Positions 1,992-48,684 are shown, counted from the first letter of the stretch. The stretch is 64,000 bases of DNA from Chloroflexota bacterium (GCA_013388845.1 JACAEN010000026.1:37328-101327); one strand, 5' to 3'. Numbers and translations: made by a program. The notes: generated by a model from the sequence alone, not told the origin.

Positions 1992-3407
1992 ATGATTTTG
2001 TTTACTCTATCTGGCTTCAGACTTGCTATGCGAGGGAAAACAAAAAGCTCTGTCAGTGTAGTCCCGCTCAATTGCGCTGATAAATGCCTGCTGGCCCTTG
2101 ATAGCATAGGCGAACGTATGTATATTCACGTAATTCTGGAGCTCGAAGGAGAGGTGGACCCTGTTAGATTGAATCAAGCGATTTCGTCGGCACAACGAGC
2201 TTATCCCGTTATGAGAACGATTTTGCGGAGCAAAAATTTCAGGACTTTTCGCGAGATACAAGAAGACCTTGGGAAGGGGGTTTTGAGCGTCACAGACTGT
2301 GCTCAGTTTCATGATACTGACCCCGAAGGCTATCTTACCTCTTGGATGAATCGGCCTTTCAACCTCTGGAAAGAGTTCCCTGTGAGGATCCTTCTATTGA
2401 AGAAAAATGAACGAGAATCCTCGCTAGTTTTCACATTTCATCATTCGGCGGCAGACGGACTCCGTGCCCTTCTGTTCATAAGGAGAGTGGTCGAGAGTTA
2501 CAACAATGAGTGTTCTAAGAATTGTGAGTCCTCGGAGGACATTCGCATCAATCGAAAAGGAGATGAATTGCTGGAATTTGCCCACAGCCAGAGGGCAAGG
2601 GTAGAACATTATTATAGGAAAATGCTTTGTAGTCTATTCTATCGCTTTGTTATAGCTGCTGTTCCTCCCCCGACGAGAGTTTTCCACGACAGACAGGGAC
2701 AGTCTAGAGAACTCGGTTTTTGTTTCAAAGTTGTAGGCCCCAGGGATTTCAAGCAAATCCAATCCAAAGCAAGGGCGGCTGGAGTCGAGTTAAATCACGT
2801 CTTTCTGGCAGCTTGTTACCGAACAGTGGAGAAGTGGAATAGCATGCATGGGAAGACCAGCAAAAAGATCCGTATAATGGCTCCCGTAAATATAAGCCCG
2901 AAGGGTTTTCGCTATGTTGTTTCCAATCAGGCGTCGTGGTTTTCGCTACCTACCAAGCCCCAGGACAGAGCTGACCCCATAAAGCTATTGAGGAAAGTAA
3001 GAGCAGATACTATAGACGCAACGAGGAATAGAATAGCCTTCTCTTTGGTTTACTTCTTCTACTTTTGCTCTCGCTTTCCTCTATTTGTTATGAAGTGGAT
3101 GTGCCACTTCTTGATGATTACCCGCACATATGTTGATAGTATTCTCTTTACCAATGTTGGCTTCATCTGGCCCAAATTAGGCTCTGAAGAGCCGGCAGTG
3201 AGGAAAATAGGTGACGCTAAAATACTCAATATTACTGGCTCAGCACCGGTGGTGACTCCTATGGGGCTGAGCATCGCCTCCGGCACCTATAACAAACATC
3301 TAAATTTCTCTCTCAGTTACAGGCCCGCTATGTTCTCCGCAGAAAAAGCTCAGAAGTTCCTAGACCTATACCTCGGAGAGATTAAGAGCTATCAGGTTGG
3401 TGCGTAG
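1992..3407 (+). CDS. condensation-domain acyltransferase (HHxxxDG; WS/DGAT- or PapA5-like)
   Basis: 471 aa with an HHSAADG motif at ~aa 150, and a size and motif spacing typical of WS/DGAT or a stand-alone C-domain. The start is uncertain: 1992, or the ATG at 2028 (MRGKTKSS...). Confidence 0.55.
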   Translation: MILFTLSGFRLAMRGKTKSSVSVVPLNCADKCLLALDSIGERMYIHVILELEGEVDPVRLNQAISSAQRAYPVMRTILRSKNFRTFREIQEDLGKGVLSVTDCAQFHDTDPEGYLTSWMNRPFNLWKEFPVRILLLKKNERESSLVFTFHHSAADGLRALLFIRRVVESYNNECSKNCESSEDIRINRKGDELLEFAHSQRARVEHYYRKMLCSLFYRFVIAAVPPPTRVFHDRQGQSRELGFCFKVVGPRDFKQIQSKARAAGVELNHVFLAACYRTVEKWNSMHGKTSKKIRIMAPVNISPKGFRYVVSNQASWFSLPTKPQDRADPIKLLRKVRADTIDATRNRIAFSLVYFFYFCSRFPLFVMKWMCHFLMITRTYVDSILFTNVGFIWPKLGSEEPAVRKIGDAKILNITGSAPVVTPMGLSIASGTYNKHLNFSLSYRPAMFSAEKAQKFLDLYLGEIKSYQVGA

Positions 3408-3413
3408 AGCCTA

Positions 3414-4718
3414 ATGACAGTAGCGCTGGTAAAATTCAATGGCTCCCTGGATTCGCTTCGTGATGCTATCGAACTCTGTGACGGGTTTGGGAAGCTGCGC
3501 AAGAATGACAGAGTCTTGATAAAACCCAATAACTGTTTCCGACACAAAATAATGCCTCCTTATGGGATGGTGACTACGTCCTGGATTATAGACGGCGTCG
3601 TACAATTGTTGTTTGAATTTGGTTGCTACGATATTTCCATTGGTGAAGGTGCCATCATCGGTATATTTGATGAGCTTGAGCCGTATACGAAACGAGGTTT
3701 CAAAGGCACGGGCATTGACAGGATAGCGAAAAAATATGGAGTTAAACTGATTGATTTCAATAAGGGTGCTTTCCATGAGCTAGATTTAGAGGGGATAAAA
3801 GTCCAGGTCTCCAAAGTAGCCTTAGACACAGACTTTTTCATAAATATCCCCGTGCTCAAGACTCATTTTCAAGCCAAGGTCTCCTTGGGTTTCAAGAATC
3901 TGAAGGGTTGCCTCAGTCAGGACTCAAAAAGGAGATTTCATATTAGCAAGCGACTGGACACCCTAATTTGCCTTTTAAACGAAGCTATCAAGAGCGACTT
4001 GGTCATAATTGATGGTATCTATATGCTGGAGAAAGGGCCGGAGACTCTTGTGGGTGTAGCCCATCGCAAGGATTTGCTCATAGCCAGCCCGGACGTATTC
4101 GAGTGCGATGTTGTGGGGGCCACAATCTTAGGGATTGACCCGGCACAGGTGGACTATCTGAAAGAATTTGCCCGCAGACATGATCGCTCCTTTGATATCA
4201 GTGCGATTCAAATTAAAGGAGAGGCTATAGAATCTGTGAAGGAGCAGCTTGAATGGCGCTTTGAGCCAGACCAGGAGTTGCTCACGCCGGCCGGGGTAAC
4301 AGGGCTTTCCGCTCCTCATCCAGGGCAGACTCTTTGTTCCGCTTGTGGTGCCACGCTTGCTCTGGCGTTATCAATATTCGCCAAAGATAATCCTGGTACG
4401 GATTTTGGCGGTGTAGCGTTCTATTATGGGCTGGGATTGGAGCCGCAAGAAGATACTCCAAAGGTCATCCTTTACGGCGATTGTGCCATCGGAAGTAACA
4501 AGGGTTTGCAGAATGCCATCAAAATAAGGGGATGTCCGCCTACACTGACTAAGACTCTATTGGCCTTGATGAAAACCCTTCTTAGTAAGCCCAGAATGCG
4601 GAGGATGCTGTTCGTACAAGCCGCAAGATTGATTGGGATAAGGCTCGGGGTCGGCTCGGAGATTTTTCCTAGATGGAAGCGATACCGGTCAAAAGAATTC
4701 GACAGGACCCACTTTTGA
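3414..4718 (+). CDS. DUF362 domain protein (putative Fe-S protein) with Cys-rich C-terminal extension
   Basis: 434 aa. DUF362 hallmarks (RVLIKPNN..., NIPVLKTHFQAKVSLGFKN) plus a C-terminal CSACGA...C...C region. It starts 7 nt after the condensation gene stop. Confidence 0.6.
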   Translation: MTVALVKFNGSLDSLRDAIELCDGFGKLRKNDRVLIKPNNCFRHKIMPPYGMVTTSWIIDGVVQLLFEFGCYDISIGEGAIIGIFDELEPYTKRGFKGTGIDRIAKKYGVKLIDFNKGAFHELDLEGIKVQVSKVALDTDFFINIPVLKTHFQAKVSLGFKNLKGCLSQDSKRRFHISKRLDTLICLLNEAIKSDLVIIDGIYMLEKGPETLVGVAHRKDLLIASPDVFECDVVGATILGIDPAQVDYLKEFARRHDRSFDISAIQIKGEAIESVKEQLEWRFEPDQELLTPAGVTGLSAPHPGQTLCSACGATLALALSIFAKDNPGTDFGGVAFYYGLGLEPQEDTPKVILYGDCAIGSNKGLQNAIKIRGCPPTLTKTLLALMKTLLSKPRMRRMLFVQAARLIGIRLGVGSEIFPRWKRYRSKEFDRTHF

Positions 4719-17146: not shown

Positions 17147-17186
17147 ATCAATCTCCTTTTGGTTTCAGAATATGCCTGAGCGTGAC

Positions 17187-17969
17187 TTACTGCACTACAT
17201 GGTGACCGCAATTGACAACAAGCGTGTGCCCGGTTATCCCACTAGACTCGTCTGAAGCCAAGAACACTGCAGCAGCAGCTACCTCAGCTTCTTCAGTCGG
17301 TCTCTGGAGAGAATAGTTTGCAGTAATCTTGCTCATTAACTCTTCAAAAGGAACACCCGTAGCCTCGGACCTGCCCGTTACCACATTAGTAAGACGTTCT
17401 CCCCTGACCGCAGCAGGGCTAATGCAGTTGACACGAATGTTGTATTGTCCCACCTCGATAGCCAGTGTTTCGGTCAATCCAATGATCCCCCACTTAGAGA
17501 CACAGTAAGGACTTCTCATAGGATACCCAAACCTTCCCCCATCGCTACCCATGTTTATTATATTGCCCTTTCTGCGCGGAATCATGTGTTTAAGCACTTC
17601 CCTGGCACACAGCATACTCCCGGTTAGATTAATGGCCAGCACCTCGTTCCAATCCTGCAGTCTCAGGTCAACGACATTAACAGTAGGTCCAGCAATGCCA
17701 CTATTGTTAACCAGTATATCGACCTTGCCATAGTCATTAAGGGTTTCGGCTACCAGCCGCTGTACTTGCTTTTCATCAGAGACGTCGGTTTGTATGGCTT
17801 TTGCCCTACCTCCTCCTGATTTAATCTTCTCAACGGTCTCATCTAACCTCGAGACTGTCCGAGCGGCTATGACTACTATTGCCCCCTCATAAGCAAAGGC
17901 CATCGAGATAGCCTTGCCGATACCTCTCCCACCGCCAGTAACGATAGCTACTTTATCTTTTAATCGCAT
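17187..17969 (-). CDS. SDR family oxidoreductase
   Basis: 260 aa with TGGGRGIGKAI, NNSG and YCVSKWG (YxxxK). Confidence 0.75.
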   Translation of the reverse strand: MRLKDKVAIVTGGGRGIGKAISMAFAYEGAIVVIAARTVSRLDETVEKIKSGGGRAKAIQTDVSDEKQVQRLVAETLNDYGKVDILVNNSGIAGPTVNVVDLRLQDWNEVLAINLTGSMLCAREVLKHMIPRRKGNIINMGSDGGRFGYPMRSPYCVSKWGIIGLTETLAIEVGQYNIRVNCISPAAVRGERLTNVVTGRSEATGVPFEELMSKITANYSLQRPTEEAEVAAAAVFLASDESSGITGHTLVVNCGHHVVQ

Positions 17970-18139
17970 GTATTGTACCTCCCTTAAGCGCTAACTTGAT
18001 GTCTATATAATTCTTATATAACAAGCCGTGGTCGCCCAGCAGGCTGCAAAACAGACATATGGTCACGCCTCAACGGCACACACGCGACGTAGAGCATCCC
18101 TTCCGCTGTCTCTTTGTTAATTTATTTCTTTAATCGAGG

Positions 18140-18925
18140 TCAATGGCTGTACCAATCGGGGTAGATTTGTGTAAGAATTACAGACGGGTCGCACAGAGGT
18201 CCAAGATACATGACGGGATATCTGATTCCTCTTTTTCGAAGGGCTTGCAAACCTTCGACCGCCTTGGCCATCATTCCCGGTGGCAGCGCCATAACCATTT
18301 CATCTTCGGTAACAGTGCCGAATGCTCTCTCTCCCATGCAGGGAATAGCCAGGGCAGGCTTGCCAGTGGTATAACACTGAGCTAAGCCATCGGCGCAAGA
18401 GCCTTCACCGATGAAGAAAAACTGAAAGCGCTCGTAGTCTTTAAACTGGAGCCCGTTCATCAGCAACATCATCTGGGCAGGATTACCGTAGATTAAGATA
18501 ACGTCAGGGGCAAACTTCACCGAACCTAGTGGGGCGAGCACGATGGCCTCTCCAGGCGGAACCAGGGGATATACCACCATCTGCCTTCTGGCTTCTTCCA
18601 CGTTGGCAAACCAGGTATTGCCGAAGGCAGTTGCCTCCCAGGCGACCTCTTTTTTAGTAGTAGCTGCCAGACCAGAGATTCGAGCACAGCGCTCACCGAG
18701 GTTGTCTCTTGTCAATCCTACAGTCATGCCTCCCATTCGAGCCAACGCTGGTGCTTGGCAAAAAGAAGCTCTTCGATTGAGTCGCATCACGCCCGGTATT
18801 TTCTCCAGCTCTTTTACTTTCTCCAGTCTCTTGTAGGCAACGGGGGTTGTTTTGAGACGAAGCAAGCACTCCATCTCTTGGGTAAGCTTTGCCCAGTCAA
18901 CCACTGTAGCTTCTTTTTTCTTCAC
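18140..18925 (-). CDS. DUF169 domain protein (second copy)
   Basis: 261 aa, related to 16397..17146 (...VAYKRL...FCQ...G...E.C...). Confidence 0.55.
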   Translation of the reverse strand: MKKKEATVVDWAKLTQEMECLLRLKTTPVAYKRLEKVKELEKIPGVMRLNRRASFCQAPALARMGGMTVGLTRDNLGERCARISGLAATTKKEVAWEATAFGNTWFANVEEARRQMVVYPLVPPGEAIVLAPLGSVKFAPDVILIYGNPAQMMLLMNGLQFKDYERFQFFFIGEGSCADGLAQCYTTGKPALAIPCMGERAFGTVTEDEMVMALPPGMMAKAVEGLQALRKRGIRYPVMYLGPLCDPSVILTQIYPDWYSH

Positions 18926-29162: not shown

Positions 29163-30542
29163 ATGGAAGTTTCTTCGTTTCGGGGTATACGCTATAACCA
29201 AAGGATAGTCGGAGATTTAGCTCAAGTCCTTTGTCCTCCTTATGATATTATCACGCCCGAACAACAGAAACTTTACTACAAGAAGAGCGATTACAACGCC
29301 ATTCGTTTGGAATTGCCCGCTGAAAGCCAGGAGCCAGCAGTCGATCGTTATCAGGGAGCAGCTATCACCTTTCAGCGATGGCTAGAACAAGGGATTCTTC
29401 AAACCGATAGTGTATCCGGCTTCTATTTGCATGACCATTGTTTTGAGTATGCAGGCGAAAAGAGGGTAAGGCGTGGGCTGATAGCTCGTGTTAAGCTCGA
29501 GCCCTGGGGCGGTGGTATATATCCCCACGAAGAAACATTTTCTAAAGCTAAAGGCGACCGGTTGCAGTTAATGCGAGCTTGCCGAGCTAACTTCAGCCCG
29601 TTGTTTTCTCTTTACCAGGATTCTGAGCGAAAAATCGCCTCAATATTATCCCACGTAGCACAAAGAAAACCACTAATGTCATTGCGGGCCCCGATTTTGT
29701 TGGGACAAAGCAATCTCCTTGACTCTAATGAAGCCCATACTCTGTGGGCGATAACTGACCCAGAAATCAAGCGGCAGCTAAGTCAGCTTCTATCCTCTCA
29801 ACCCCTTTACATTGCTGATGGGCATCACCGCTACGAAACAGCGTTGGCTTACCAGCAAGAAAGAGCGAAAGAGCAATCTGATTTCTTTGACTCCTCTGTC
29901 ATTGCGAGTCCCGATTTTGTCGGGACGAAACAATCTCTAACCCCGATGAGATCAGGGGGAGCCTTCAATTATGTAATGATGGAATTAGTTGACTTTTCTG
30001 ACCCGGGACTTGTTGTTCTCCCCATCCACAGATTAGTGCATGGTATAGCGCCTGCTACCTTAACAGGGCTGGAAGACCGACTTAGGAAGTTTTTTGTCCT
30101 GGAGTCCGTTCCCTTAAAAACTGATAGCCCCGACGCGTTGAGGTTGCCATCCAATAGCTGTTTGGGAATCCTAGGTTTACAACCCGGCTCATTGGTCGTG
30201 TTGAAGAGGCGTCACCCCGATTCCATCGGGGTTTCCCTTGAGGCCATGATGCCCGGTAACAGGTCCCAAGCTTATCGGGAATTTGGCGTTAGCATTCTTA
30301 ATCATATTATTTTGGATGATGTCCTGAGCGGAGCGAAGGATCTGGACGTCGCTTATACCGTGGATTTGCAAGAAGCCTACCAGCAGGTAAGGGAAGGGAA
30401 ATATCAATTGGCTTTCCTATTAAATCCTCCGCAGCCGGACATAGTCAAGGCTGTTGCCGACGCTCAAGACAGGATGCCCAGCAAATCAACTTATTTTTAC
30501 CCCAAGCTCCCCGCTGGTTTAATCATTAATCCCCTGGACTGA
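29163..30542 (+). CDS. DUF1015 domain protein (with two in-frame palindromic-repeat insertions)
   Basis: 459 aa with the IADGHHRYE motif and overall DUF1015 similarity. It is about 40 aa longer than typical because of the repeat copies at 29677-29717 and 29897-29937. Confidence 0.75.
   Translation: MEVSSFRGIRYNQRIVGDLAQVLCPPYDIITPEQQKLYYKKSDYNAIRLELPAESQEPAVDRYQGAAITFQRWLEQGILQTDSVSGFYLHDHCFEYAGEKRVRRGLIARVKLEPWGGGIYPHEETFSKAKGDRLQLMRACRANFSPLFSLYQDSERKIASILSHVAQRKPLMSLRAPILLGQSNLLDSNEAHTLWAITDPEIKRQLSQLLSSQPLYIADGHHRYETALAYQQERAKEQSDFFDSSVIASPDFVGTKQSLTPMRSGGAFNYVMMELVDFSDPGLVVLPIHRLVHGIAPATLTGLEDRLRKFFVLESVPLKTDSPDALRLPSNSCLGILGLQPGSLVVLKRRHPDSIGVSLEAMMPGNRSQAYREFGVSILNHIILDDVLSGAKDLDVAYTVDLQEAYQQVREGKYQLAFLLNPPQPDIVKAVADAQDRMPSKSTYFYPKLPAGLIINPLD
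29677..29717. repeat. ~40-bp palindromic repeat unit (gtcattgcg.g.cccgatttt.t.gggac.aa.caatc), copy a, inside DUF1015 CDS
   Basis: Similar to 29897-29937 and 30610-30649, and to 37082-37109 in reverse complement. In the protein it is translated as MSLRAPILLGQSNL. Confidence 0.55.
29897..29937. repeat. ~40-bp palindromic repeat unit, copy b, inside DUF1015 CDS (different frame)
   Basis: ctgtcattgcgagtcccgattttgtcgggacgaaacaatctc, translated as SVIASPDFVGTKQS. Confidence 0.55.
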
Positions 30543-30609
30543 CCAGCAATTTCCTCTCCTTCGATGCGACAGTGTGCTTCCCTATCTTTTCCCCTTCCTC
30601 GACTCCCAG

Positions 30610-30649
30610 TGTCATTGCGAGTCCCGATTTATCGGGACGAAGCAATCCG
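30610..30649. repeat. ~40-bp palindromic repeat unit, copy c (intergenic)
   Basis: gtcattgcgagtcccgatttatcgggacgaagcaatcc, located 68 nt after the DUF1015 stop. Confidence 0.55.
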
Positions 30650-30759
30650 TTCTTCCGTGAAGGGAGGTGAGGCTAGTCCTGAGCCGAAGCCCTGAGCAAA
30701 GCGAAGGGTCAGCGAAGGATGAGGGTAAATATAAAAGAGTGAACAAGGGAGGTGCAGCA

Positions 30760-31025
30760 ATGGAAAAAGGCAGATTGATAGGCAAAATCTTTGGGATTGT
30801 ACTTATATTGGTGCTGATTGGGGCGATGCTTGGCAGGTTGCCTGTTTAACGAGCGAAGCTGGAGCCTCTCCGGGAACTATTTGTGTCCCCGATAGCTATC
30901 TAACAATCCAGGCAATGGTGAATACTGCTAATCCAGGCGATACCATAATCGTCTATCCGGGTACATACACCGAAAATGTGGATGTCAACAAGAGCTTAAC
31001 CATCAAAATCAGAGAACGGAACTGA
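30760..31025 (+). pseudogene. decayed 5' fragment of a paralog of the 31807 beta-helix gene (signal anchor + first beta-helix turns)
   Basis: The 30600-31020 region aligns at ~75% with 31690-32100, covering the leader, RBS, signal anchor MEKGRLIGKIFGIVLILVLIGAMLG and a frameshifted ...PGDTIIVYPGTYTENVDVNK. It is interrupted by a short deletion and stops. Confidence 0.45.
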
Positions 31026-31081
31026 GGCAATGATTGCTAAGGCAGTGAACAAGTGACTATAATAGTGATAAAGGAGGCGTA

Positions 31082-31294
31082 ATGAATTCGAGGATTATTT
31101 CAGATCCAAATATCTGCGGTGGGGAACCCTGTATTAGGGATACTCGCATTCCAGTGCATGTAATCCTTAGCCATCTGGCAGCCGGAGAGGATTACGACAC
31201 CATATTAAAGAATTTCCCCCGACTCAAGCGCGAAGATATCTTGGCTTGTCTCGAATATGCCGCGTATCTGTCTACTGAAAAGGTAGCTCTGTAG
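31082..31294 (+). CDS. DUF433 domain protein (putative antitoxin)
   Basis: 70 aa with the DUF433-typical C(I/V)RDTRIPV..IL motif. A tataat/AAGGAGG signal lies upstream, and its stop abuts the ATG of the next gene. Confidence 0.7.
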   Translation: MNSRIISDPNICGGEPCIRDTRIPVHVILSHLAAGEDYDTILKNFPRLKREDILACLEYAAYLSTEKVAL

Positions 31295-31645
31295 ATGAAA
31301 ATCGTGGTGGATGAGAATGTCAGCTATGGACTCGTGGAAAGATTGCGTATGAGAGGGTATGATGTTATCTCTACCTCTGAACTTCCTGAAAGGGGAATAT
31401 TGGACGAGGATATTTACACTTTGATACTACGAGAACAAGCAATTTTTGTCACCAGAGATCATCATTTTACTAATCCCATTCGCTTTCCAGCAGAGAAAAC
31501 TAAGGGGATTATTTATGTTCGGCATGGTAATCTGAAGTCGGAAGAAGAAATTATGATAGTAGAGAATTGTCTTCGTAGCCATGATTTGGAAATATTCCAG
31601 GGGAAGTTGGTTACTCTTTACAGAGATAGTATGAGAATTCGGTGA
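31295..31645 (+). CDS. DUF5615 (PIN-like) domain protein (putative toxin)
   Basis: 116 aa (MKIVVDENVS...FVTRD). This is the usual DUF433 partner, and it is translationally coupled. Confidence 0.65.
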   Translation: MKIVVDENVSYGLVERLRMRGYDVISTSELPERGILDEDIYTLILREQAIFVTRDHHFTNPIRFPAEKTKGIIYVRHGNLKSEEEIMIVENCLRSHDLEIFQGKLVTLYRDSMRIR

Positions 31646-31806
31646 GTATAGCATCCTGCATAACTTCTCTCTCCCTTTATGGGAGAGGATTAAGAGCCTG
31701 TCCTGAGCCGAAGCCCTGAGCCGAAGCTCTGAACGGAGTGAAGAGGCAGCGAAGGGTCAAGAAGGATGAGGGTAAATATAAAATAGTGAACAAGGGAGGT
31801 ACATCA

Positions 31807-32739
31807 ATGAAAAGAGGCAAATTGATCGGCAGAATCTTTGAGATTGCGGTTGTGTTTGTGATGATTGGGGCGATGCTTGGCGGGTTGCCTGCATTGGTGA
31901 GCCAAGTTGAAGCCTCTCCAGCAACGATCTATGTTCCCGACGACTATTCCACAATTCAAGCCGCCGTATATGCGGCAAGCCCTGGGGACACCATAATCGT
32001 AAGGGATGGAACTTATACAGAGAATGTATGTGTGAACAAAGGCCACTTCACTATTCGGTCACAGAACGGGGCAGAAAAAACGATTGTTCAGGCGGCTGAT
32101 CCGGATTTCTGCGTCTTTTGGGTGGAAGCGGATTATGTGACCATAAGGGGATTTACAATATCAAACGGCTGCGATGGTATCGAGTTGGCATATTCTCATA
32201 ACAATACGTTAGCCGATAACACTGTTATTGACAACGCAGAGGATGGCATTGAGCTAATAGGCTCAGAAAACAATATTTTGAGCGGAAACACAATATCGAA
32301 TAATAATGGTGACGGCATTTATTTGAGTGATAGTTCAAATAATAACACCTTGGTTAATAATATGATTGTTTCAAACTACCACTCCGGCATCCTTTTATTC
32401 AGATCATCCAACAATACGATCTGGAGTAATATTGGCAAATTAAATAACATAGGTATTAGTTTTTGGGAGTCAAGTGGCAATGCCATATACTTTAACAATT
32501 TCGGGGAAAATACTGGCGGCAATGTTGGTTATTATGACCCTTCAACTAACATTAATACTTGGAATTCTCCAGAAAAAATAACCTACACCTACGACGGCAA
32601 CATTTACACAAACTTCCTCGGCAACTACTGGAGCGACTATGCCGGAAGCGACACTGACGGGGATGGCATTGGGGATACTCCTTACCCAATAGATTCAGAT
32701 GCAGACAATTATCCGCTGGTGGAGCCTTTTGAGAATTAG
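31807..32739 (+). CDS. right-handed parallel beta-helix repeat protein with N-terminal signal anchor
   Basis: Start at the ATG at 31807, after an AGGGAGG RBS. It has a TM/signal region (IAVVFVMIGAMLGGLPALVSQVEA) and repeated NNxxxxN beta-helix turns (NosD/pectate-lyase-like). It ends in a TAG that is in frame with the next ORF. Confidence 0.65.
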   Translation: MKRGKLIGRIFEIAVVFVMIGAMLGGLPALVSQVEASPATIYVPDDYSTIQAAVYAASPGDTIIVRDGTYTENVCVNKGHFTIRSQNGAEKTIVQAADPDFCVFWVEADYVTIRGFTISNGCDGIELAYSHNNTLADNTVIDNAEDGIELIGSENNILSGNTISNNNGDGIYLSDSSNNNTLVNNMIVSNYHSGILLFRSSNNTIWSNIGKLNNIGISFWESSGNAIYFNNFGENTGGNVGYYDPSTNINTWNSPEKITYTYDGNIYTNFLGNYWSDYAGSDTDGDGIGDTPYPIDSDADNYPLVEPFEN

Positions 32740-32763
32740 GAGGTTGCGGAAATCCCGTGGCCA

Positions 32764-35700
32764 ATGTTCCAGCACGACCCTCAGCATACAGGGCAAAGCC
32801 CTTATATTGGGCCGCAGACAGATGATTTATTGTGGAGCTATGATGTCGGAGATTTTGCGGTTGGTTCACCAGTTGTCGGTTCAGATGGAACTATCTATGT
32901 ACCCGTTAAACATATCTGGGGCCCTTGTTTAGTAGCTGTTAAGCCTAACGGAAGCCTTAAGTATTCTGTAGGCCGTGGCCCCGGTGTTACCCCGGCAATA
33001 GGAACGGATGGCACAATATACATAGGACGAGCTTTTGTGTGGAAGGAAGGCATTCGAGGCTCTCTAGCTGCTCTTGATCCTGACACGGGTGCACCTAAGT
33101 GGGGGCTGCAAATAACAGGTCTCCGCACATCGCTACTAATCGCGCCGGACGACACTATTTATGTTGGAGCTGGGTATGAGGGGGAGGAAGGCGCAACATT
33201 ATATGCTATCAATCCTGATGGAACGATTAAGTGGAAATTTGTCTCGACTCCTAGAGAAGGTTGGTTTCTCTCCCCTCCAGCTCTTGGATTAGATGGCTCA
33301 ATAATTGCTTGTGCAACATTCAGTCCGATAGCAGAGGGTCCGCCTAATCCAACAATTTATGCCCTTAATGCAGAGGACGGGAGTCTAGAATGGCAGTTTG
33401 AACTTCCCTTCTGGACCTCTGTATCAATGCCAGCCGTAGGCCCCGATGGGACAATCTACGTTGGATCGAGCGGAGGAGAGGGAGGAGTACTTTACTCAGT
33501 TAGTCCGAATGGGAACCTCAACTGGGAAGTGAAACTTGGCACTGGCACCTCCTCTCCGGCAGTAGGATCAGATGGAACTGTATACATTGCAGCGGCTTCC
33601 TCTGAAGGAGGAGCTTTGTTTGCTGTTAATCCCGATGGAACTGTCAAATGGAGTTACCCGTGCTCTTATGCTTGCCACACACCTGTGATCGGCGCTGACG
33701 GAACAACATACTGGCCAACCAACTGGCCTTCAGGAAGAGGTGTCTTAATGGCTCTTGATTCTGAGGGGAGTCTGAAATTGGAATATGCTATTGATAGTCA
33801 CTGGGCATCATCGGCTTCCATTTCCGCCAATGGCACTCTTTATATAGGGTCAGCTGATGGCATGCTGTACGCTATCGGCCCGGGGCCTGCTGACACCACT
33901 CCACCTACAGTGGTTAGCGCATTTCCGGAGGGCGGCGCCACCGATGTCAGCATTGATACAGTAATAACTGCCACATTCAGCGAGGCCATGGATAGCTCTA
34001 CCATAACTACCGACAGCTTTACCCTAGCTGGCAGCGCAGTTTCAGGGACAGTAACCTATGACCCCGAAACCTATACTGCTACCTTCACCCCTGGGGCTAA
34101 CTTGGATTACGACCATGAATATACTGCCACCTTGAGCACTGATATTACTGATGAAGCTGGCAATCCACTAGCTGAACCCTATACTTGGAGCTTTACCAGT
34201 GAGTCAGCGCCTGCTGATACCACCCCGCCGAACACTGAAGTAACTAGCGGCCCTAGCGGAACGATAGACTATGACGATGTCATCTTCACCTGGACTGGCG
34301 TGGATAACGTCACTCCCACCTCCGGGCTGGTCTACTCTTATTATCTGCAAGGCTACGACAGCGACTGGTCAGCCTGGACATCTGATACGACCAAGCAATA
34401 CACCGACTTGCCCGACGGAGACTACACCTTCAAGGTAAAGGCAAAGGATCAAGCAGGGAATACGGATCCCACTCCGGCGGAAAGGTCTTTTACAGTCGAG
34501 GTCGTATGGTCTTTTGCCATCATCACCGATTTGCATATTGGCCGGGGTTACCTCGATTATGGTGGGGAAGGAATCGGGCCTGAGGATTGGCAGGTAGAGG
34601 GGCAAGATTACTACCTTACCAACAGATTGCACAGGACAGTTGATTGGATAATACAAAATCAAGATAACTACGACCTTAAATTCGTGATTGTTCTTGGAGA
34701 CATCAGTGATAGCGGTGAATATTCAGAATTGAAAAAAGCAAAAGATATTCTGGATGAGCTAAATGATGCAGGCATTCCCTATGTGCCTATGATAGGCAAT
34801 CACGATGTTTTGCCCTATACTGAAGACGAGGAATTTGAACATGTAAGATACTTCGAATTTGTTTTTGAAGAACAATTCGAAAGCCTTATGGAGGATCCTT
34901 CTTTCAATTTAATAAAGCAACCGGCCCCTGAGCCTTATGATTTGCAGAACTATGCTTTTGGTTATGGAGGAATAGGATTCGTTATTTTGGATTGTGTGGC
35001 AAGAGAACCAGTGCCTGGCGCTGCGAAAGGGGTAGGTTCTGATGCTGTACTTCGGGATAGCACATTGCTTTGGCTCACTGAAAACTTAAAGGAAGGCCAG
35101 CCGACAGTTATACTATCACATCATCCGCTTGTAACCCCTGAAGGGGGTTTCGATCCTTGGGAGATAGTTACGATTGATGAGGCTATTAAGATTAGCGGAG
35201 CCGATGTTCTAGCCGACTTCGCTGGACACGTTCATGGCTTTTACGATCCGTCCACATTGTGGCGACCAGGGCTCCCCTATCCTATTGGAAATCCATCGTT
35301 CATGGATGCTAACACAATATATGCTGGCCTAGGAGTTCCAGAAGGTGTGCCCGCAATAACTACGGAAGCTCTCATGGTTGCATCAAATGACCCAATATCA
35401 AAAGGCGTCGTGAGAATCATAGAAGCAGAAGGTAGCCAAATCACAATTCCTCTTGAGGTTCAGGGAGAGCTCCCTGCATTGAATCCCTATTTCAAACAAG
35501 TAGATGTTGAATTGCAGCCCGCATTAGGATGGCCACCATTTAAGTGGGTTATTGAGGTTGAAGCTTACGCTTTTACGAAGTTGTTTAGCGAGGAACATCC
35601 CGTTACCTATACTTTGTACATAGACGGTGAGGAGGTGGGTAGCGTCCAGAGCGTGAGCTGGCTTAACGCAGTTGAGTTCGAGCACGAATATCGGGGTGAT

Positions 35701-36462
35701 AAGTTCTACAATTTCAATTTAACTGTCGAAGGTTATGTACCTGGGAGCGAGAGCATAAGCCAGACAAGATATCTGTGTCGCCCTGATTTACTGTTCGCAG
35801 CTTTCAGCCCAGTTGATATTACCGTCATAGATCCCGACGGCCTCACGATTGGCAAGCAACTGAATCAGATTCCAGGAGCAACCTATATTGAAGAGGATTT
35901 CAACGGAGATGGTAATCCCGACGACGTCATCACTATCCCTGATCGTAAGATAGGAGATTACATCGTAACAGTATTATCAGACCCCGGCGCTAGTCCCACA
36001 GATACTTATAGCCTAGGAGTTTTGGCAGAAGACGGTACAATCCTACCTTTGGCTGAAAATGTTGCGATTAGTAATATCCCAAGCTTGCCATATATAGTCA
36101 GATCAACAGAAACTGAAATCATACAAATCATACTAGCCCGCATAGACTTCGACCCAGACACCTTAAACCTGAAGACCAAGGACAAGTATGTCACCGTCTA
36201 TATCGAGCTTCCGCCGGGCTACGATGTCGCCAAGATCGACGTTTCCAGCATCAGGCTGAACGGCACCGTTCCAGCCTTGACCAAGCCAACCAACGTTGGT
36301 GACTACGACAGTGATGGCATTCCCGACCTGATGGTCAAGTTTGATAGAGCTGCAGTGAAGGATCTACTCACGCCCGGTAGCCAAGTAGAGATAACAGTAA
36401 CGGGAGAGGTCGCTGGAATTGGCTTTGAGGGCAGCGATACTATCAGGGTAATAAGTAAGTAA
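32764..36462 (+). CDS. large multidomain protein: PQQ-like beta-propeller + SbsA-type Ig (Big_5) + Y_Y_Y-like domain + calcineurin-like metallophosphoesterase + C-terminal beta-rich/Ca-binding region
   Basis: 1232 aa with more than 8 DGTIY blades. The Big_5 domain reads TTPPTVVSAFPEGGATDVSIDTVITATFSEAMD. The Y_Y_Y-like domain reads YSYYLQGYDSDWSAW...DGDYTFKVKAKD. The MPP motifs are DLHIG, GDISDSG, GNHD, SHHP and GHVHG. The C-terminus has a DYDSDGIPD loop. There is no signal peptide, and the first residues (W)PMFQHDPQHTG form the canonical start of propeller blade 1. Confidence 0.7.
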   Translation: MFQHDPQHTGQSPYIGPQTDDLLWSYDVGDFAVGSPVVGSDGTIYVPVKHIWGPCLVAVKPNGSLKYSVGRGPGVTPAIGTDGTIYIGRAFVWKEGIRGSLAALDPDTGAPKWGLQITGLRTSLLIAPDDTIYVGAGYEGEEGATLYAINPDGTIKWKFVSTPREGWFLSPPALGLDGSIIACATFSPIAEGPPNPTIYALNAEDGSLEWQFELPFWTSVSMPAVGPDGTIYVGSSGGEGGVLYSVSPNGNLNWEVKLGTGTSSPAVGSDGTVYIAAASSEGGALFAVNPDGTVKWSYPCSYACHTPVIGADGTTYWPTNWPSGRGVLMALDSEGSLKLEYAIDSHWASSASISANGTLYIGSADGMLYAIGPGPADTTPPTVVSAFPEGGATDVSIDTVITATFSEAMDSSTITTDSFTLAGSAVSGTVTYDPETYTATFTPGANLDYDHEYTATLSTDITDEAGNPLAEPYTWSFTSESAPADTTPPNTEVTSGPSGTIDYDDVIFTWTGVDNVTPTSGLVYSYYLQGYDSDWSAWTSDTTKQYTDLPDGDYTFKVKAKDQAGNTDPTPAERSFTVEVVWSFAIITDLHIGRGYLDYGGEGIGPEDWQVEGQDYYLTNRLHRTVDWIIQNQDNYDLKFVIVLGDISDSGEYSELKKAKDILDELNDAGIPYVPMIGNHDVLPYTEDEEFEHVRYFEFVFEEQFESLMEDPSFNLIKQPAPEPYDLQNYAFGYGGIGFVILDCVAREPVPGAAKGVGSDAVLRDSTLLWLTENLKEGQPTVILSHHPLVTPEGGFDPWEIVTIDEAIKISGADVLADFAGHVHGFYDPSTLWRPGLPYPIGNPSFMDANTIYAGLGVPEGVPAITTEALMVASNDPISKGVVRIIEAEGSQITIPLEVQGELPALNPYFKQVDVELQPALGWPPFKWVIEVEAYAFTKLFSEEHPVTYTLYIDGEEVGSVQSVSWLNAVEFEHEYRGDKFYNFNLTVEGYVPGSESISQTRYLCRPDLLFAAFSPVDITVIDPDGLTIGKQLNQIPGATYIEEDFNGDGNPDDVITIPDRKIGDYIVTVLSDPGASPTDTYSLGVLAEDGTILPLAENVAISNIPSLPYIVRSTETEIIQIILARIDFDPDTLNLKTKDKYVTVYIELPPGYDVAKIDVSSIRLNGTVPALTKPTNVGDYDSDGIPDLMVKFDRAAVKDLLTPGSQVEITVTGEVAGIGFEGSDTIRVISK

Positions 36463-36613
36463 TACGGCAAGATTTTTGCCCTGGTTGTGCTGCTTTTGGT
36501 TGGGGTGGCTCGCTGGGATAGGGGAAAAGAGGTTCCGCGTGGCTCAAGGATAGGCCTTTAAGCCAAAGAGTAAGGGGGGGCGGCTTTTTCAAATGTGCCG
36601 TCCCCTTTTTCAC

Positions 36614-36641
36614 TTGACATCCCATTGCGGAACGCTATAAA
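36614..36641 (+). promoter_or_regulatory. promoter TTGACA-16-TATAAA upstream of hicB
   Basis: ttgaca 36614-19 and tataaa 36636-41, with an AAGGAG RBS at ~36673. Confidence 0.5.
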
Positions 36642-36686
36642 TTATACAGGAGTCCGACATGTCTGAAACCTAAAGGAGTCAGCTTT

Positions 36687-36917
36687 ATGAAAAAGATCGT
36701 CCAGGTCAAAATCTATAAAGGGGAGAAATTTTACGTTGCTGAGTGTGTTGACTTGCCTGTGGTTACTCAAGGCAAGACCCTAGACGAAGTTGTGGAGAAT
36801 ATGAGGGAAGCTATTGACCTCCATCTTGAGGGGGAGAGTCTAGAGGAGTGGGATATTTCCCCCGATTTTTCCATTTTGGCCAATTTTGAGCTTGAGCCAG
36901 TTCATGCCAAAACTTAG
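36687..36917 (+). CDS. hicB: HicB-family antitoxin (UPF0150)
   Basis: 76 aa, MKKIVQVKIYKGEKFYVAECVDLPVVTQGKTLDEVVENMREAIDLHLEG, which is HicB_lk-like. Confidence 0.7.
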   Translation: MKKIVQVKIYKGEKFYVAECVDLPVVTQGKTLDEVVENMREAIDLHLEGESLEEWDISPDFSILANFELEPVHAKT

Positions 36918-37050
36918 AAGCCTAAGCGGAGAGGATGTTGTGAGATTCATAAAGAACTGGATAAAGGCACCTTAAGAGCCATCTTCAGGCAAGCTTTAAG
37001 ATATTTCCCGGAAAAGCAGCTTAAGCCGTATTTCTATAGATAGAAGTATT
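36904..37050 (+). pseudogene. decayed hicA toxin remnant
   Basis: MPKLRSLSGEDVVRFIKNWIKAP* resembles a HicA N-terminus (MPKL..SGKE..). A +1 frame continues KSHLQASFKIFPGK, resembling the HicA KGSH..F.HP.G motif, and then reaches stops. Confidence 0.4.
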
Positions 37051-37081
37051 ATGTCTGGGTTAGTACAGTTGTGCTGAGGTT

Positions 37082-37109
37082 GAGATTGCTTCGCTTCGCT
37101 CGCAATGAC
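37082..37109. repeat. short palindromic repeat unit, copy d (reverse orientation, shorter core)
   Basis: The reverse complement reads gtcattgcgagcgaagcgaagcaatctc, with the same termini as the DUF1015-associated copies. Confidence 0.45.
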
Positions 37110-37182
37110 GTGCTCTCGCTTCAAGCCAGAGGGATACTACATGAAATTATGCGGGAGGCTCTAAATCCCCTCTTAAGACGAC

Positions 37183-46962: not shown

Positions 46963-48684
46963 ATGAAATTGGACAGGCGAATAACTAATCTCATTATTAC
47001 CGGTTTCTCGGGCACCGGTAAATCTCTGGTGGCTATGGAGGTAGCCCGGAGATTAAATTGGGATTTCCTGGATACCGATGACGAGATAGTTAAACAAACC
47101 GGCAAGTCTATCGCCGAGATTTTTCGTCAGGATGGGGAGGCAAGGTTCAGGGAACTGGAACGGGAGATGATTAGAAAAGCTTGCCAGCAAAGGCAGACAG
47201 TCATAGCTATTGGCGGCGGTGCCATAGTTGACCCACAAAACTATGAGGTGCTGGCCAAAACCGGGTTGATTGTTTGCCTGGAGGCTAAAGCAGAGACAAT
47301 CTATGAGCGCTTATTCCATGAGGCTGCTTGTAGCCCTGAGACCGAAGTGCGCCCGCTTTTAGCTACCGATAACCCTTTGGAACGCATCAGGCAGCTTAAA
47401 GCCTCCCGGCAGCCTTACTATGCCAAGGCGGATTGGACAATCCATACTGATGGCTTAAGCATCAAGGAAGTAGCAGAAGAGGTAGTAAGGGCTTGGAGAT
47501 TGCTTCGTCGCTACACTCCTCGCAATGACAATGATAGGGACATCGCTTGCTGGGTAGAGACTGCGACTCAAAGTTATCCTGTCTTTGTTGGCTATGGTTT
47601 ATTAGACAAGCTGGGCGAAAAGATGAAGAAAGCTGCTTTGTCTGGCACAGCCACCATAATTAGCGACGAAAATGTCTTCTCTATTTACGGCAGCAAGGTT
47701 GAGGGAACCCTCAAGGACACTGGCTTTGCGGTTAATTCCTTTGTAGTTCCGCCGGGCGAGGAAGCGAAAAGCATGGACTATGCTGTCAAGATTTATGATT
47801 TCCTTGTCGAGCATCGAGCGGAGCGAGACGATATTATCATCGCCTTGGGTGGGGGTATGGTCGGTGACTTAGCGGGTTTTGTCGCTGCCACCTTCTTACG
47901 AGGCATGCCTTGGGTGCAAGTGCCAACCAGTTTGGTAGCTATGGTTGATGCCAGCATCGGTGGTAAGGTCGGGGTTAATCATCCTGAGGGGAAAAACCTT
48001 ATTGGCGCCTTCTATCAGCCTAATTTGGTTTTGGCTGACCCTCAGACTCTGACCACTCTGCCTCAGCGTGAGCTGATCTCAGGCTGGGCTGAAGTTATTA
48101 AGCATGGCTTGATTCTTGATGAGGAATTTGTTCAATTTCTGGAGAGCAATGTTAATAAGCTGACAAAGCTGGAGCCGGGGTTGCTTACCCGAGCTATTGC
48201 CCGTAGCGCTGCTATCAAGGCTCAGGTCGTCAGCCAGGATGAAAAAGAAAGGGAGGGGAAGCGCACCATCTTAAACTATGGGCATACCATTGCTCATGGA
48301 CTGGAGGCGGCTACTCAGTATAAGCGCTTTCTTCATGGCGAAGCAGTAGCCATTGGCATGATGGGAGCCGCCAGGCTTAGTCAGCGACTGGGTCTTTTGC
48401 CTTCAGCGGCAGTGGAACGCCAACAAGCCCTATTGCAGAAATTCGGCCTACCCACATCATTGCGAGCCGAAGCTGCAAGCCCCGACTTGTCAGGGCGTGG
48501 TAGGAAGCGAGGCAATCTCAAGTTGAGCCTGGCCGGGGTAACTAGAGCCATGGAACTGGATAAAAAAGTGAAAGGAAAGGCAATTCGCTGGGTGCTGTTA
48601 CAAGATATCGGCAAAGCAGTAATTTGTACTGATGTGCCTCAGCAGGATGTGTTAGCTGTTATTCAGGAGCTAGCGGAGCCGTGA
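46963..48684 (+). CDS. bifunctional shikimate kinase / 3-dehydroquinate synthase fusion
   Basis: 573 aa. The N-terminus has the AroK P-loop (GFSGTGKS). The C-terminus is the DHQS core (GGGMVGDLAGFVAATFLRG...GGKVGVNHPEGKN). Confidence 0.8.
   Translation: MKLDRRITNLIITGFSGTGKSLVAMEVARRLNWDFLDTDDEIVKQTGKSIAEIFRQDGEARFRELEREMIRKACQQRQTVIAIGGGAIVDPQNYEVLAKTGLIVCLEAKAETIYERLFHEAACSPETEVRPLLATDNPLERIRQLKASRQPYYAKADWTIHTDGLSIKEVAEEVVRAWRLLRRYTPRNDNDRDIACWVETATQSYPVFVGYGLLDKLGEKMKKAALSGTATIISDENVFSIYGSKVEGTLKDTGFAVNSFVVPPGEEAKSMDYAVKIYDFLVEHRAERDDIIIALGGGMVGDLAGFVAATFLRGMPWVQVPTSLVAMVDASIGGKVGVNHPEGKNLIGAFYQPNLVLADPQTLTTLPQRELISGWAEVIKHGLILDEEFVQFLESNVNKLTKLEPGLLTRAIARSAAIKAQVVSQDEKEREGKRTILNYGHTIAHGLEAATQYKRFLHGEAVAIGMMGAARLSQRLGLLPSAAVERQQALLQKFGLPTSLRAEAASPDLSGRGRKRGNLKLSLAGVTRAMELDKKVKGKAIRWVLLQDIGKAVICTDVPQQDVLAVIQELAEP

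What the first reader, a model, noticed from the sequence alone, without database searches (positions are those of the whole stretch)
30600..32766. Single in-frame TAG separates a signal-anchored beta-helix protein from a 1232-aa signal-less propeller/MPP protein. The junction looks like a natural interdomain linker
ORF 31738..32739 and ORF 32764..36462 are in the same frame, separated only by a TAG at 32737-39 and 8 sense codons: ...YPLVEPFEN*EVAEIPWPMFQHDPQHTG.... The motif W-P-M-F-x-H-D-P-Q-H-T-G is the canonical start of the first PQQ/BamB-like propeller blade. It is normally found just after a signal peptide or linker. The downstream protein has an obviously extracytoplasmic architecture (propeller, Big_5, Y_Y_Y, metallophosphoesterase, Ca-binding C-terminus) but no signal peptide of its own. 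The upstream gene has a signal anchor. This leaves three readings. It may be a recently nonsense-interrupted ~1570-aa fusion gene. It may be a programmed readthrough or fusion. Or it may be two genes, with the second one exported by an unknown route. An AGGAGG sits at 32738-43, 20 nt before the ATG and 8 nt before an in-frame ATC.
Basis: seen in the sequence. Interest (0 to 1): 0.6.

Follow-up and report, generated by a model that had tools for sequence, protein, structure and literature searches.

The report
Secreted-protein gene split by one stop
A single-base change (TAT tyrosine to TAG stop) has cut one large secreted multi-domain protein gene of a Dehalococcoidia bacterium into two open reading frames; this is an ordinary recent gene interruption, not a new export route or recoding signal.

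Summary
TAG at 32737-39 separates two ORFs in the same frame, and it is also present in an independent Logan assembly of run SRR10095340.

- **The stop replaces a tyrosine.** The beta-helix module of this family ends in a conserved motif, DNYPL(V/M)EPFENY. The window reads ...DNYPLVEPFEN-TAG. The two closest comparable genes have TAT at exactly that codon.
- **Relatives are single ORFs.** At least 12 homologues run from the beta-helix through a short linker into PWPMFQHDxQHTG. Single BLASTP alignments cross the stop (E = 8e-138).
- **A positional counterpart is one gene.** In a related species, the gene between the same flanking genes is one 1419-aa ORF with the same signal peptide and the same C-terminal domain.
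- **The downstream start is not a start.** Its "start" Met is the conserved internal M of the WPMF motif. The AGGAGG is created by the T-to-G change itself and lies 20 nt from that ATG. The downstream part has no signal peptide.
- **The event looks recent.** 1240 downstream codons are still open and the phosphoesterase motifs are intact.

TAG is an ordinary stop here (11 of 40 genes). Pyrrolysine read-through cannot be fully excluded, because PylRS genes are reported in a Dehalococcoides/Chloroflexi lineage, but nothing supports it. Interest is low.

The parts
31792..31799 (+). Ribosome-binding site AAGGGAGG, 7 nt before ATG 31807
   Evidence: Sequence. The site is invariant in the alignment with the remnant copy, L032 and L010.
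31807..31914 (+). Signal peptide MKRGKLIGRIFEIAVVFVMIGAMLGGLPALVSQVEA (predicted cleavage VEA|SP)
   Evidence: Hydropathy maximum 2.6. The same leader occurs in nine proteins, eight of them relatives and one this gene's own 310-aa product, and in L032 and L010.
31807..32736 (+). 5' part of the interrupted gene: signal peptide plus NosD/CASH-type right-handed beta-helix, 310 codons, ending ...DNYPLVEPFEN
   Evidence: Pfam NosD 116 bits and Beta_helix 109 bits. The best relatives are 384-6361 aa long, so a stand-alone 310-aa form is exceptional.
32737..32739 (+). Premature stop TAG, derived from TAT (Tyr) by a T-to-G change at 32739
   Evidence: L032 and L034 have TAT in an otherwise alignable nucleotide context. 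Tyr fills this position in 53 of 60 motif occurrences. The TAG is also present in the Logan contig.
32738..32743 (+). AGGAGG, a Shine-Dalgarno look-alike created by the mutation (ancestral ATGAGG), 20 nt from ATG 32764
   Evidence: The few GGAGG-to-start spacings in this window cluster at 5-8 nt.
32740..32763 (+). Interdomain linker codons EVAEIPWP, now untranslated
   Evidence: They align with the linker and the start of the WPMF motif in single-ORF homologues.
32764..33880 (+). PQQ/BamB-like beta-propeller. Its first codon, ATG, is the internal Met of the WPMF motif
   Evidence: Pfam PQQ_2 and Beta-prop_ACSF4. The motif is internal in 21 homologues and follows a signal peptide in 2.
33892..34197 (+). 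Big_5 Ig-like domain
   Evidence: Pfam 87 bits.
34321..34497 (+). Y_Y_Y domain
   Evidence: Pfam 44 bits.
34513..35238 (+). Metallophosphoesterase domain with intact DxH, GDxxD, GNHD and GHxH motifs
   Evidence: Pfam 48.6 bits. Motifs located.
36106..36462 (+). Conserved C-terminal Ig-like tail domain (DFDPDTLNLK...GDYDSDGIPDLMVKFD...) and the TAA stop
   Evidence: 80% identical to the tail of the single-ORF L032 gene. It is present in 15 proteins, always as the C-terminal 103-127 residues. AlphaFold pLDDT 78, beta-sandwich.
30660..31040 (+). Decayed duplicate of the 5' UTR, signal peptide and first ~60 codons of a gene of the same family (1-nt deletion, stops)
   Evidence: 87% identity over 131 nt. 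Alignment. tblastn.
31082..31645 (+). DUF433/DUF5615 (PIN-like) toxin-antitoxin pair between the remnant and the gene
   Evidence: Pfam. The same pair stands alone at this site in L008 and L009.
30611..30647 (+). Left copy of a small palindromic repeat at the border of the island
   Evidence: The Logan contig ends here.
37084..37109 (-). Right copy of the palindromic repeat at the border of the island
   Evidence: The Logan contig ends here.

Best explanation
ORFs 31807..32739 and 32764..36462 are the two halves of one gene. That gene encoded a 1551-aa Sec-exported multi-domain protein. In order, its parts are a signal peptide, a NosD/CASH beta-helix, a short linker, a PQQ-type beta-propeller, Big_5, Y_Y_Y, a metallophosphoesterase and an Ig-like C-terminal tail.

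A single T-to-G transversion at 32739 turned the conserved tyrosine codon of the module-ending motif PFENY (TAT) into TAG.

**Shown**
- The ancestral architecture was a single ORF.
- The mutated codon is identified.

**Inferred consequences**
- Ribosomes now terminate after 310 codons and release a secreted, probably still foldable, beta-helix-only protein.
- The remaining 1232 codons are transcribed on the same mRNA. They are either not translated or translated only weakly from the fortuitous internal ATG, giving a leaderless cytoplasmic product that cannot reach its normal extracellular location.
- The event is recent. The downstream frame is still fully open and its catalytic motifs are intact.

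The gene lies in a variable, dispensable island between two housekeeping genes. That setting fits relaxed selection.
For: - **The stop sits where relatives have Tyr.**
  - The motif D-N-Y-P-L-x-E-P-F-E-N-Y ends the beta-helix module in homologues. 44 of 60 occurrences read ENY, and Tyr is at the TAG-aligned position in 53 of 60.
  - 59 of 60 occurrences continue into further domains.
- **Nucleotide context.**
  - L032: GAGCCTTTTGAGAATTATGAA
  - L034: AAGCCTTTTGAGAGTTATGTA
  - window: GAGCCTTTTGAGAATTAGGAG
- **Homologues are single ORFs across this junction.**
  - Five single-ORF proteins (P0017, P0041, P0055, P0109, P0111) have the beta-helix-to-linker-to-WPMFxHD junction.
  - At least 7 further metagenome contigs do too, for example L037 with PFENYEIGADSPWPMFQHDPQHTG. 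None has a stop.
  - Single collinear BLASTP alignments cross the stop: P0109 covers query 5-694 at E = 8e-138, and P0055 covers query 111-650.
- **Synteny.** L032 carries, between the same DUF1015 and serA genes, one 1419-aa ORF.
  - It has the same leader and beta-helix head (51% identity) and the same 118-aa tail (80% identity).
  - It is followed by the same HicB-like gene (95% identity).
- **Leader and tail on one polypeptide.** P0022, P0054, P0092 and P0203 carry both.
- **Length of relatives.** The best 149 relatives of the 310-aa product are 384-6361 aa long.
- **No independent expression signals.**
  - The downstream N-terminus has no hydrophobic segment (maximum 1.12, against 2.6 upstream).
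  - WPMF is never a leaderless N-terminus in homologues.
  - No terminator-like site and only one weak promoter-like match (9 of 12, about 270 nt upstream of the ATG) lie near the junction.
- **Recency.** There are 0 stops in 1240 codons in frame, against 75 and 100 in the other two frames. The phosphoesterase motifs are intact.
- **Two assemblies agree on TAG**.
Against: - No read-level data, so a minority allele or a consensus error cannot be excluded. Both assemblies probably derive from the same run.
- No close orthologue (above about 50% identity over the whole length) exists in the databases searched. The single-ORF ancestry therefore rests on family architecture and one positional counterpart with a different middle section.
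- The stop falls exactly at a domain boundary and an ATG follows soon after. That is also what a successful gene fission would look like.
- Some Dehalococcoidia/Chloroflexi are reported to carry pyrrolysine machinery (PMC5424206). Translation of the TAG is therefore not formally excluded.
Confidence: 0.8

Rival explanations
1. The gene is intact in the organism. The TAG would be a sequencing, assembly or consensus artefact, or a minority allele fixed in the consensus of a mixed population.
For: - The source is a metagenome-assembled genome.
- Only one sample carries the sequence.
- The downstream frame shows no decay at all, which is what an intact gene would show.
Against: - Two different assemblies (the NCBI MAG and the Logan contig) give the same base over 6.5 kb with zero differences.
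- Substitution errors in a covered consensus are far rarer than real nonsense alleles (established knowledge).
- The locus shows other real decay: the remnant 5' copy and a HicA remnant.
Confidence: 0.1
2. Gene fission. Both halves would be functional genes, with the downstream 1232-aa protein translated from ATG 32764 by re-initiation or the new AGGAGG. It would work in the cytoplasm or leave the cell by an unknown route.
For: - The stop lies exactly at a domain boundary.
- An ATG follows 8 codons later, and an SD-like AGGAGG precedes it.
- The downstream ORF and its catalytic motifs are intact.
- One homologue, P0071, ends right after the PWENYF motif. The beta-helix can therefore be a C-terminal module.
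Against: - The SD-to-ATG spacing of 20 nt is outside the functional range. The window's own spacings cluster at 5-8 nt.
- The ATG is a conserved internal residue of the WPMF motif.
- There is no signal peptide, yet every domain is of an extracytoplasmic type.
- No homologue begins leaderless at this motif.
- No related locus shows a two-gene arrangement.
Confidence: 0.06
3. The TAG is translated. This could be as pyrrolysine in a Pyl-decoding Dehalococcoidia lineage, or through a suppressor or near-cognate tRNA. The cell would then make both a short beta-helix protein and the full-length 1551-aa protein.
For: [quoted passage not shown]
- A relative found here, RBG_13_51_36 (L016), is one of that paper's SepRS-carrying genomes.
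- The position is a linker, where any residue would be tolerated.
Against: - TAG is not conserved at this site. Relatives have Tyr (TAT).
- TAG terminates 11 of 40 genes in the window, including serA, ruvB, mutL and an aminoacyl-tRNA synthetase.
- TAG-ending genes show no excess of nearby back-up stops (p = 0.37).
- The window has no tRNA-Pyl. The Pfam scans found no Pyl or methylamine methyltransferase gene; they covered 46 ORFs, but not all ORFs of 100 aa or more.
- No unusual RNA structure follows the stop (z = -0.19).
Confidence: 0.04

Closest known systems
Nonsense-interrupted gene (unitary pseudogene or split gene) in a bacterial genome
   Same: - A single in-frame stop lies where homologues have a sense codon.
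- Both halves align collinearly to single-ORF relatives.
- The downstream half lacks its own targeting signal and a proper RBS.
- The gene sits in a dispensable, variable island.
   Different: - Nothing essential differs.
- The stop falls exactly at a module boundary, so the truncated product is probably a complete, secretable beta-helix domain rather than a misfolded fragment.
NosD/CASH-domain multi-domain secreted or surface proteins of sediment archaea and Chloroflexi
   Same: - A signal peptide and a right-handed beta-helix (Pfam NosD, Beta_helix) are followed by Ig-like, propeller and enzyme modules.
- Relatives are annotated 'parallel beta-helix repeat protein' or 'CASH domain-containing protein'.
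- NosD-like proteins that lack the canonical NosD features are interpreted as adhesion or glycan-binding proteins in PMC13452462.
   Different: - This is not a canonical NosD. TIGR04247 scores 86.8 bits against a cut-off of 300.
- No nos operon was found among the 46 window ORFs scanned with Pfam.
- Here the polypeptide is interrupted.
Pyrrolysine (UAG) decoding and programmed stop-codon read-through
   Same: - An in-frame UAG lies inside what is otherwise one coding sequence.
- The organism belongs to a class in which PylRS genes have been reported (PMC5424206).
   Different: - In genuine Pyl genes the UAG is conserved among homologues. Here relatives have Tyr.
- The protein is not a methylamine methyltransferase.
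- The window holds no Pyl machinery, there is no downstream RNA structure, and TAG is used normally as a stop.
BamB (PQQ-like beta-propeller lipoprotein)
   Same: An eight-bladed PQQ_2-type propeller repeat (Pfam PQQ_2, 68 bits).
   Different: - The NCBIfam BamB equivalogs score 34 and 26 bits against cut-offs of 285 and 423.
- The propeller is an internal module of a large secreted protein, not a lipoprotein of the BAM complex.

Membership tests
Nonsense-interrupted single gene | The in-frame stop aligns with a sense codon in homologues | tested here: met
   Tyr in 53 of 60 motif occurrences. TAT in L032 and L034 at the same nucleotide position.
Nonsense-interrupted single gene | Homologues or positional counterparts encode both halves in one ORF, collinearly | tested here: met
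   for junctions. for the L032 positional counterpart. for leader and tail in one ORF.
Nonsense-interrupted single gene | The downstream half lacks independent expression and targeting signals | tested here: met
   The ATG is the internal Met of WPMF. AGGAGG is 20 nt away and was created by the mutation. There is no signal peptide. No terminator-like site and only a weak promoter-like match lie near the junction. This rests on sequence only; expression was not measured.
Nonsense-interrupted single gene | The stop is real at read level and fixed in the population | not testable with these tools
No strain variants were found in JGI contigs.
Pyrrolysine-encoding or programmed read-through gene | UAG conserved at the same position in homologues | tested here: not met
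   Homologues have Tyr, or other sense residues, or gaps. None of the alignments contains a stop.
Pyrrolysine-encoding or programmed read-through gene | pylT, pylS and pylBCD present in the genome | not testable with these tools
   Only 64 kb is available. It holds no tRNA-Pyl, and the Pfam scans of 46 of its ORFs found no Pyl gene; about nine smaller ORFs were not scanned. Some Dehalococcoides/Chloroflexi lineages do carry PylRS (PMC5424206).
Pyrrolysine-encoding or programmed read-through gene | Stimulatory RNA structure after the stop, or depleted or backed-up TAG stops | tested here: not met
   Fold z-score -0.19. TAG ends 11 of 40 genes. No excess of nearby second stops.
Canonical NosD (N2O reductase maturation) | Scores above the TIGR04247 cut-off, with nos operon context | tested here: not met
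   86.8 bits against a cut-off of 300. The neighbours are a TA pair, DUF1015 and serA.
NosD/Beta_helix (CASH-type) domain proteins | Pfam NosD or Beta_helix domain above the gathering score | tested here: met
   NosD 116.3 bits (cut-off 23.6). Beta_helix 109.3 bits (cut-off 25.9).
Calcineurin-like metallophosphoesterases | Pfam Metallophos above cut-off, with metal-binding motifs DxH, GDxxD, GNH[DE] and GHxH | tested here: met
   48.6 bits against 21.5. All four motifs are present at residues 589, 645, 678 and 821 of the downstream ORF.
BamB | Scores above the BamB equivalog cut-off | tested here: not met
   34 bits against 285.2, and 25.9 bits against 423.

The most novel reading that the evidence does not exclude
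The organism belongs to one of the Dehalococcoidia lineages that carry pyrrolysine machinery. The UAG at 32737 would then be partly decoded as Pyl, or by a suppressor tRNA. One gene would yield two secreted isoforms: a 274-aa mature beta-helix protein and the full 1551-aa enzyme-bearing protein. That would be a stop-codon 'dimmer' on a surface protein, outside methylamine metabolism.
Probability: 0.04. Interest if true: 0.6.

Novelty: already known. Interest (0 to 1): 0.15.

Why it matters
**For annotation.** The two ORFs should be joined and flagged as one interrupted gene. One of them is deposited as 'Ig-like domain-containing protein'. The 1232-aa ORF is not evidence for a leaderless export route.

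**For biology.** This is one more example of decay in a fast-changing accessory locus that encodes large surface proteins. The locus around it is of more interest than the stop:
- the insertion hot spot between DUF1015 and serA;
- the conserved leader and tail modules with exchangeable middles;
- the small palindromic repeats that also sit inside coding sequence.

Tried and rejected
- **Strain variants.** I looked for alleles with a sense codon using a 39-nt pattern with N at the third stop base in JGI metagenome contigs. It gave no hits.
- **Close orthologues.**
  - I searched the 5.8-billion-protein set, the 1.84-billion representative set and metagenome contigs.
  - Nothing exceeded about 50% identity over long stretches. 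A strict orthologue comparison was therefore impossible and was replaced by family architecture plus synteny.
- **Global TAG recoding.** Rejected. TAG ends 11 of 40 genes, and the only other in-frame TAG pair joins unrelated families.
- **Back-up stops after TAG genes.** They are no different from those after TAA and TGA genes.
- **Read-through-stimulating RNA structure.** None found.
- **Independent promoter or terminator at the junction.** No terminator-like site; the nearest + strand promoter-like match (32463-32491) scores only 9 of 12.
- **Pyl genes and tRNA-Pyl in the window.** No tRNA-Pyl. None of the 46 ORFs scanned with Pfam is a Pyl or methylamine methyltransferase gene; about nine smaller ORFs were not scanned.
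- **SD spacing statistics.** The window gives too few GGAGG-bearing starts (12) to be more than indicative.
- **Identity of the C-terminal tail domain.**
  - It has no Pfam, NCBIfam or PDB sequence match.
  - The AlphaFold model (pLDDT 78) matches only generic Ig-like folds, at E above 0.001.

Full report
**1. Observation**

The window has TAG at 32737-39, then GAG GTT GCG GAA ATC CCG TGG CCA, then ATG at 32764.
- The upstream ORF, listed from GTG 31738, and the 1232-aa downstream ORF (32764..36462) share one frame.
- Reading through the TAG from ATG 31807 gives a single 1551-codon frame with exactly one stop.
- AGGAGG lies at 32738-43.
- Pfam confirms NosD/Beta_helix upstream. Downstream it confirms PQQ_2, Big_5, Y_Y_Y and Metallophos.
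- The downstream ORF is deposited at NCBI as 'MAG: Ig-like domain-containing protein [Chloroflexi bacterium]' (P0001).
- An independent Logan contig from run SRR10095340 equals window 30618-37109 with no mismatch, TAG included.

The true start of the upstream gene is ATG 31807.
- It lies 7 nt after AAGGGAGG, which is invariant in relatives.
- The Logan gene call is 310 aa.
- The N-terminus, MKRGKLIGRIFEIAVVFVMIGAMLGGLPALVSQVEA|SP, has the n-h-c layout of a cleavable signal peptide (cleavage is inferred).

**2. Is it more than chance?**

Frame agreement alone is not enough. The same window holds another TAG-separated in-frame pair (1992..3407 and 3414..4718). Its halves are a Condensation-domain protein and a DUF362 protein, which are unrelated. 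The case here rests on homology across the stop.

**3. The stop replaces a conserved tyrosine at a module boundary**

Among the 120 best homologues, the beta-helix module ends with D-N-Y-P-L-x-E-P-F-E-N-Y.
- 44 of 60 occurrences read ENY, and Tyr fills the position aligned with the TAG in 53 of 60.
- In 59 of 60 the protein continues into further domains.
- The window reads DNYPLVEPFEN-TAG.

At nucleotide level the closest comparable genes have TAT at that codon:
- L032: GAGCCTTTTGAGAATTATGAA
- L034: AAGCCTTTTGAGAGTTATGTA
- window: GAGCCTTTTGAGAATTAGGAG

One T-to-G transversion at 32739 therefore explains the stop. The same change turns ATGAGG into AGGAGG.

**4. Homologues are single ORFs across this junction**

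- Five proteins from the first search go from beta-helix through a 7-13-residue linker into WPMFxHD in one polypeptide. An example is P0055, with PFENYGITPAESPWPMFQHDPQRTG.
- BLASTP of the read-through translation gives single collinear alignments over the stop. P0109 covers query 5-694 at E = 8e-138, and P0055 covers query 111-650.
- A scan of JGI metagenome contigs added at least seven more contigs with an uninterrupted junction. An example is L037, with PFENYEIGADSPWPMFQHDPQHTG. No stop appears in any alignment.
- In homologues the WPMF motif is internal (21 proteins) or follows a signal peptide (2 proteins). It is never a leaderless N-terminus.
- The 'start' Met of the 1232-aa ORF is therefore the conserved internal Met of that motif.

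**5. Synteny**

Relatives found through the neighbouring DUF1015 gene are Dehalococcoidia MAGs, at most 80% identical.
- In about 17 species, DUF1015 and serA abut directly. The 6.6-kb stretch 30543-37182 is therefore an accessory island.
- L008 and L009 carry only the DUF433/DUF5615 pair there.
- L002 and L005 carry a HicB-like gene plus a duplicated serA 3' end.
- L010 carries a different 1877-aa secreted protein with the same leader.
- L032 carries one 1419-aa ORF at this site.
  - Its leader and beta-helix head match the window's upstream ORF: MKKGKLIAKIFGIVLVFVMVGSMLGGLPALVSKVEA|SPGTIYVPDDY.
  - Its last 118 residues are 80% identical to the end of the window's downstream ORF.
  - It is followed by the same HicB-like gene (95% identity) and serA.
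- P0022, P0054, P0092 and P0203 also carry this leader and this tail on one polypeptide.

Head and tail therefore belong to one gene. Only in the window are they on separate ORFs.

**6. The 310-aa product is atypically short**

An exhaustive HMMER search of 1.84 billion representatives returned relatives of 384-6361 aa. Only two were under 500 aa. The closest full-length match, P0203 at 61% identity, is the N-terminal 314 residues of a 1038-aa protein.

**7. No signs of independent expression or recoding**

- No terminator-like site lies near the junction. The only nearby promoter-like match on the + strand (32463-32491, 9 of 12) is weak.
- AGGAGG is 20 nt from the ATG, whereas the few GGAGG-bearing starts in the window cluster at 5-8 nt.
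- The in-frame ATC at 32752 would still give a leaderless protein.
- The downstream N-terminus has no hydrophobic segment.
- TAG terminates 11 of 40 genes, including serA, ruvB, mutL and an aminoacyl-tRNA synthetase.
- TAG-ending genes have no excess of close second stops.
- The RNA after the stop folds no better than shuffles (z = -0.19).
- The window has only tRNA-Leu. No Pyl-related gene turned up in the 46 ORFs scanned.
- One caveat comes from the literature. [quoted passage not shown] One relative found here, RBG_13_51_36 (L016), is a SepRS carrier in that study (PMC5424206). Pyl decoding cannot be excluded from 64 kb, but the lack of TAG conservation at this site argues against a programmed event.

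**8. Age and consequence (inferred)**

- The frame after the TAG has 0 stops in 1240 codons, against 75 and 100 in the other two frames.
- All four metallophosphoesterase motifs are intact. The interruption is therefore recent, or the base call is wrong.
- The likely products are two.
  - A secreted 274-aa beta-helix protein ending at a natural domain boundary. Homologue P0071 ends right after the same motif.
  - Little or no product from the downstream half, which would in any case stay in the cytoplasm.
- The intact protein belongs to the NosD/CASH-type multi-domain secreted proteins, which are interpreted as glycan-binding or adhesion proteins (PMC13452462). Here it carries a phosphoesterase module.
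- It is neither a canonical NosD nor a BamB.

**9. Verdict**

This is one gene, split by a single TAT-to-TAG change: an ordinary nonsense interruption.
- Confidence is about 0.8 for a real nonsense allele.
- It is about 0.1 for an artefact or minority allele.
- It is about 0.06 for a functional fission.
- It is about 0.04 for translated UAG.

No new export route needs to be invoked.

Noticed in passing
window 30543-37182; L002-L032: The whole stretch between DUF1015 and serA is a variable island. It is empty in about 17 related Dehalococcoidia species. In others it holds different cargo: a TA pair only, a HicB-like gene plus a duplicated serA 3' end, a 1877-aa vWA-type protein, or a 1419-aa beta-helix protein. 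It looks like an insertion or recombination hot spot for large secreted-protein genes.
   Followed up: partly
window 31755-31915 and 30714-30867; L032 11900-12260; L010 4590-4800: Genes with quite different mature parts share a conserved 5' UTR (GATGAGGGTAAATATAAAAGAGTGAACAAGGGAGGTACATCAATG) and signal peptide (MKKGKLIGKIFGI...). Nine proteins carry the leader, one of them the window's own 310-aa product. A conserved ~103-aa C-terminal tail occurs in 15 proteins. Nucleotide homology between the window and the L032 gene breaks right after the PFENY codon. This suggests module exchange between a fixed head and a fixed tail.
   Followed up: partly
window 30660-31040: A decayed second copy of the leader, signal peptide and first ~60 codons of a beta-helix gene. 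It has a 1-nt deletion and stops, and it is cut off where the DUF433/DUF5615 toxin-antitoxin pair begins. It looks like a relic of an earlier gene replacement or insertion.
   Followed up: yes
window 30611-30647, 37084-37109, 47498-47529; degenerate copies at 29677-29715 and 29883-29935: A small palindromic repeat, GTCATTGCGAG...GAAGCAATC. Three intergenic copies were found against 0 expected. Two of them bracket the island and coincide with the ends of the Logan contig. Degenerate copies lie in frame inside the DUF1015 coding sequence (SVIASPDFVGTKQS). Orthologues in L032 and L010 carry comparable 'SVIASEAKQS' insertions in their DUF1015 proteins.
   Followed up: partly
window 36687-37050: A HicB-like antitoxin gene (76 aa, 95% identical in L032, L002 and L005). 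It is followed by what looks like a truncated HicA toxin remnant (...HKELDKGTLRAIFRQA...). The toxin partner seems to be decayed.
   Followed up: no
window 36040-36459: The C-terminal tail domain (DFDPDTLNLK...GDYDSDGIPDLMVKFD...) has no Pfam, NCBIfam or PDB sequence match. AlphaFold (pLDDT 78) gives an Ig-like beta-sandwich with a DxDxDG-type loop. It is a possible uncharacterised surface-attachment or Ca-binding module that always sits at the C-terminus.
   Followed up: partly
window 1992-4718: A second pair of ORFs in the same frame, separated only by TAG and two sense codons: a Condensation-domain protein and a DUF362 protein. The families are unrelated and a proper ATG lies 6 nt after the stop, so this is judged coincidental. 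It serves as a control.
   Followed up: yes
window 16397-18925: Two paralogous DUF169 genes flank a short-chain dehydrogenase. They lie next to a fatty-acid or polyketide-like cluster at about 1.5-16 kb (KS, KR, DH, ER, PPTase, Condensation domain).
   Followed up: no
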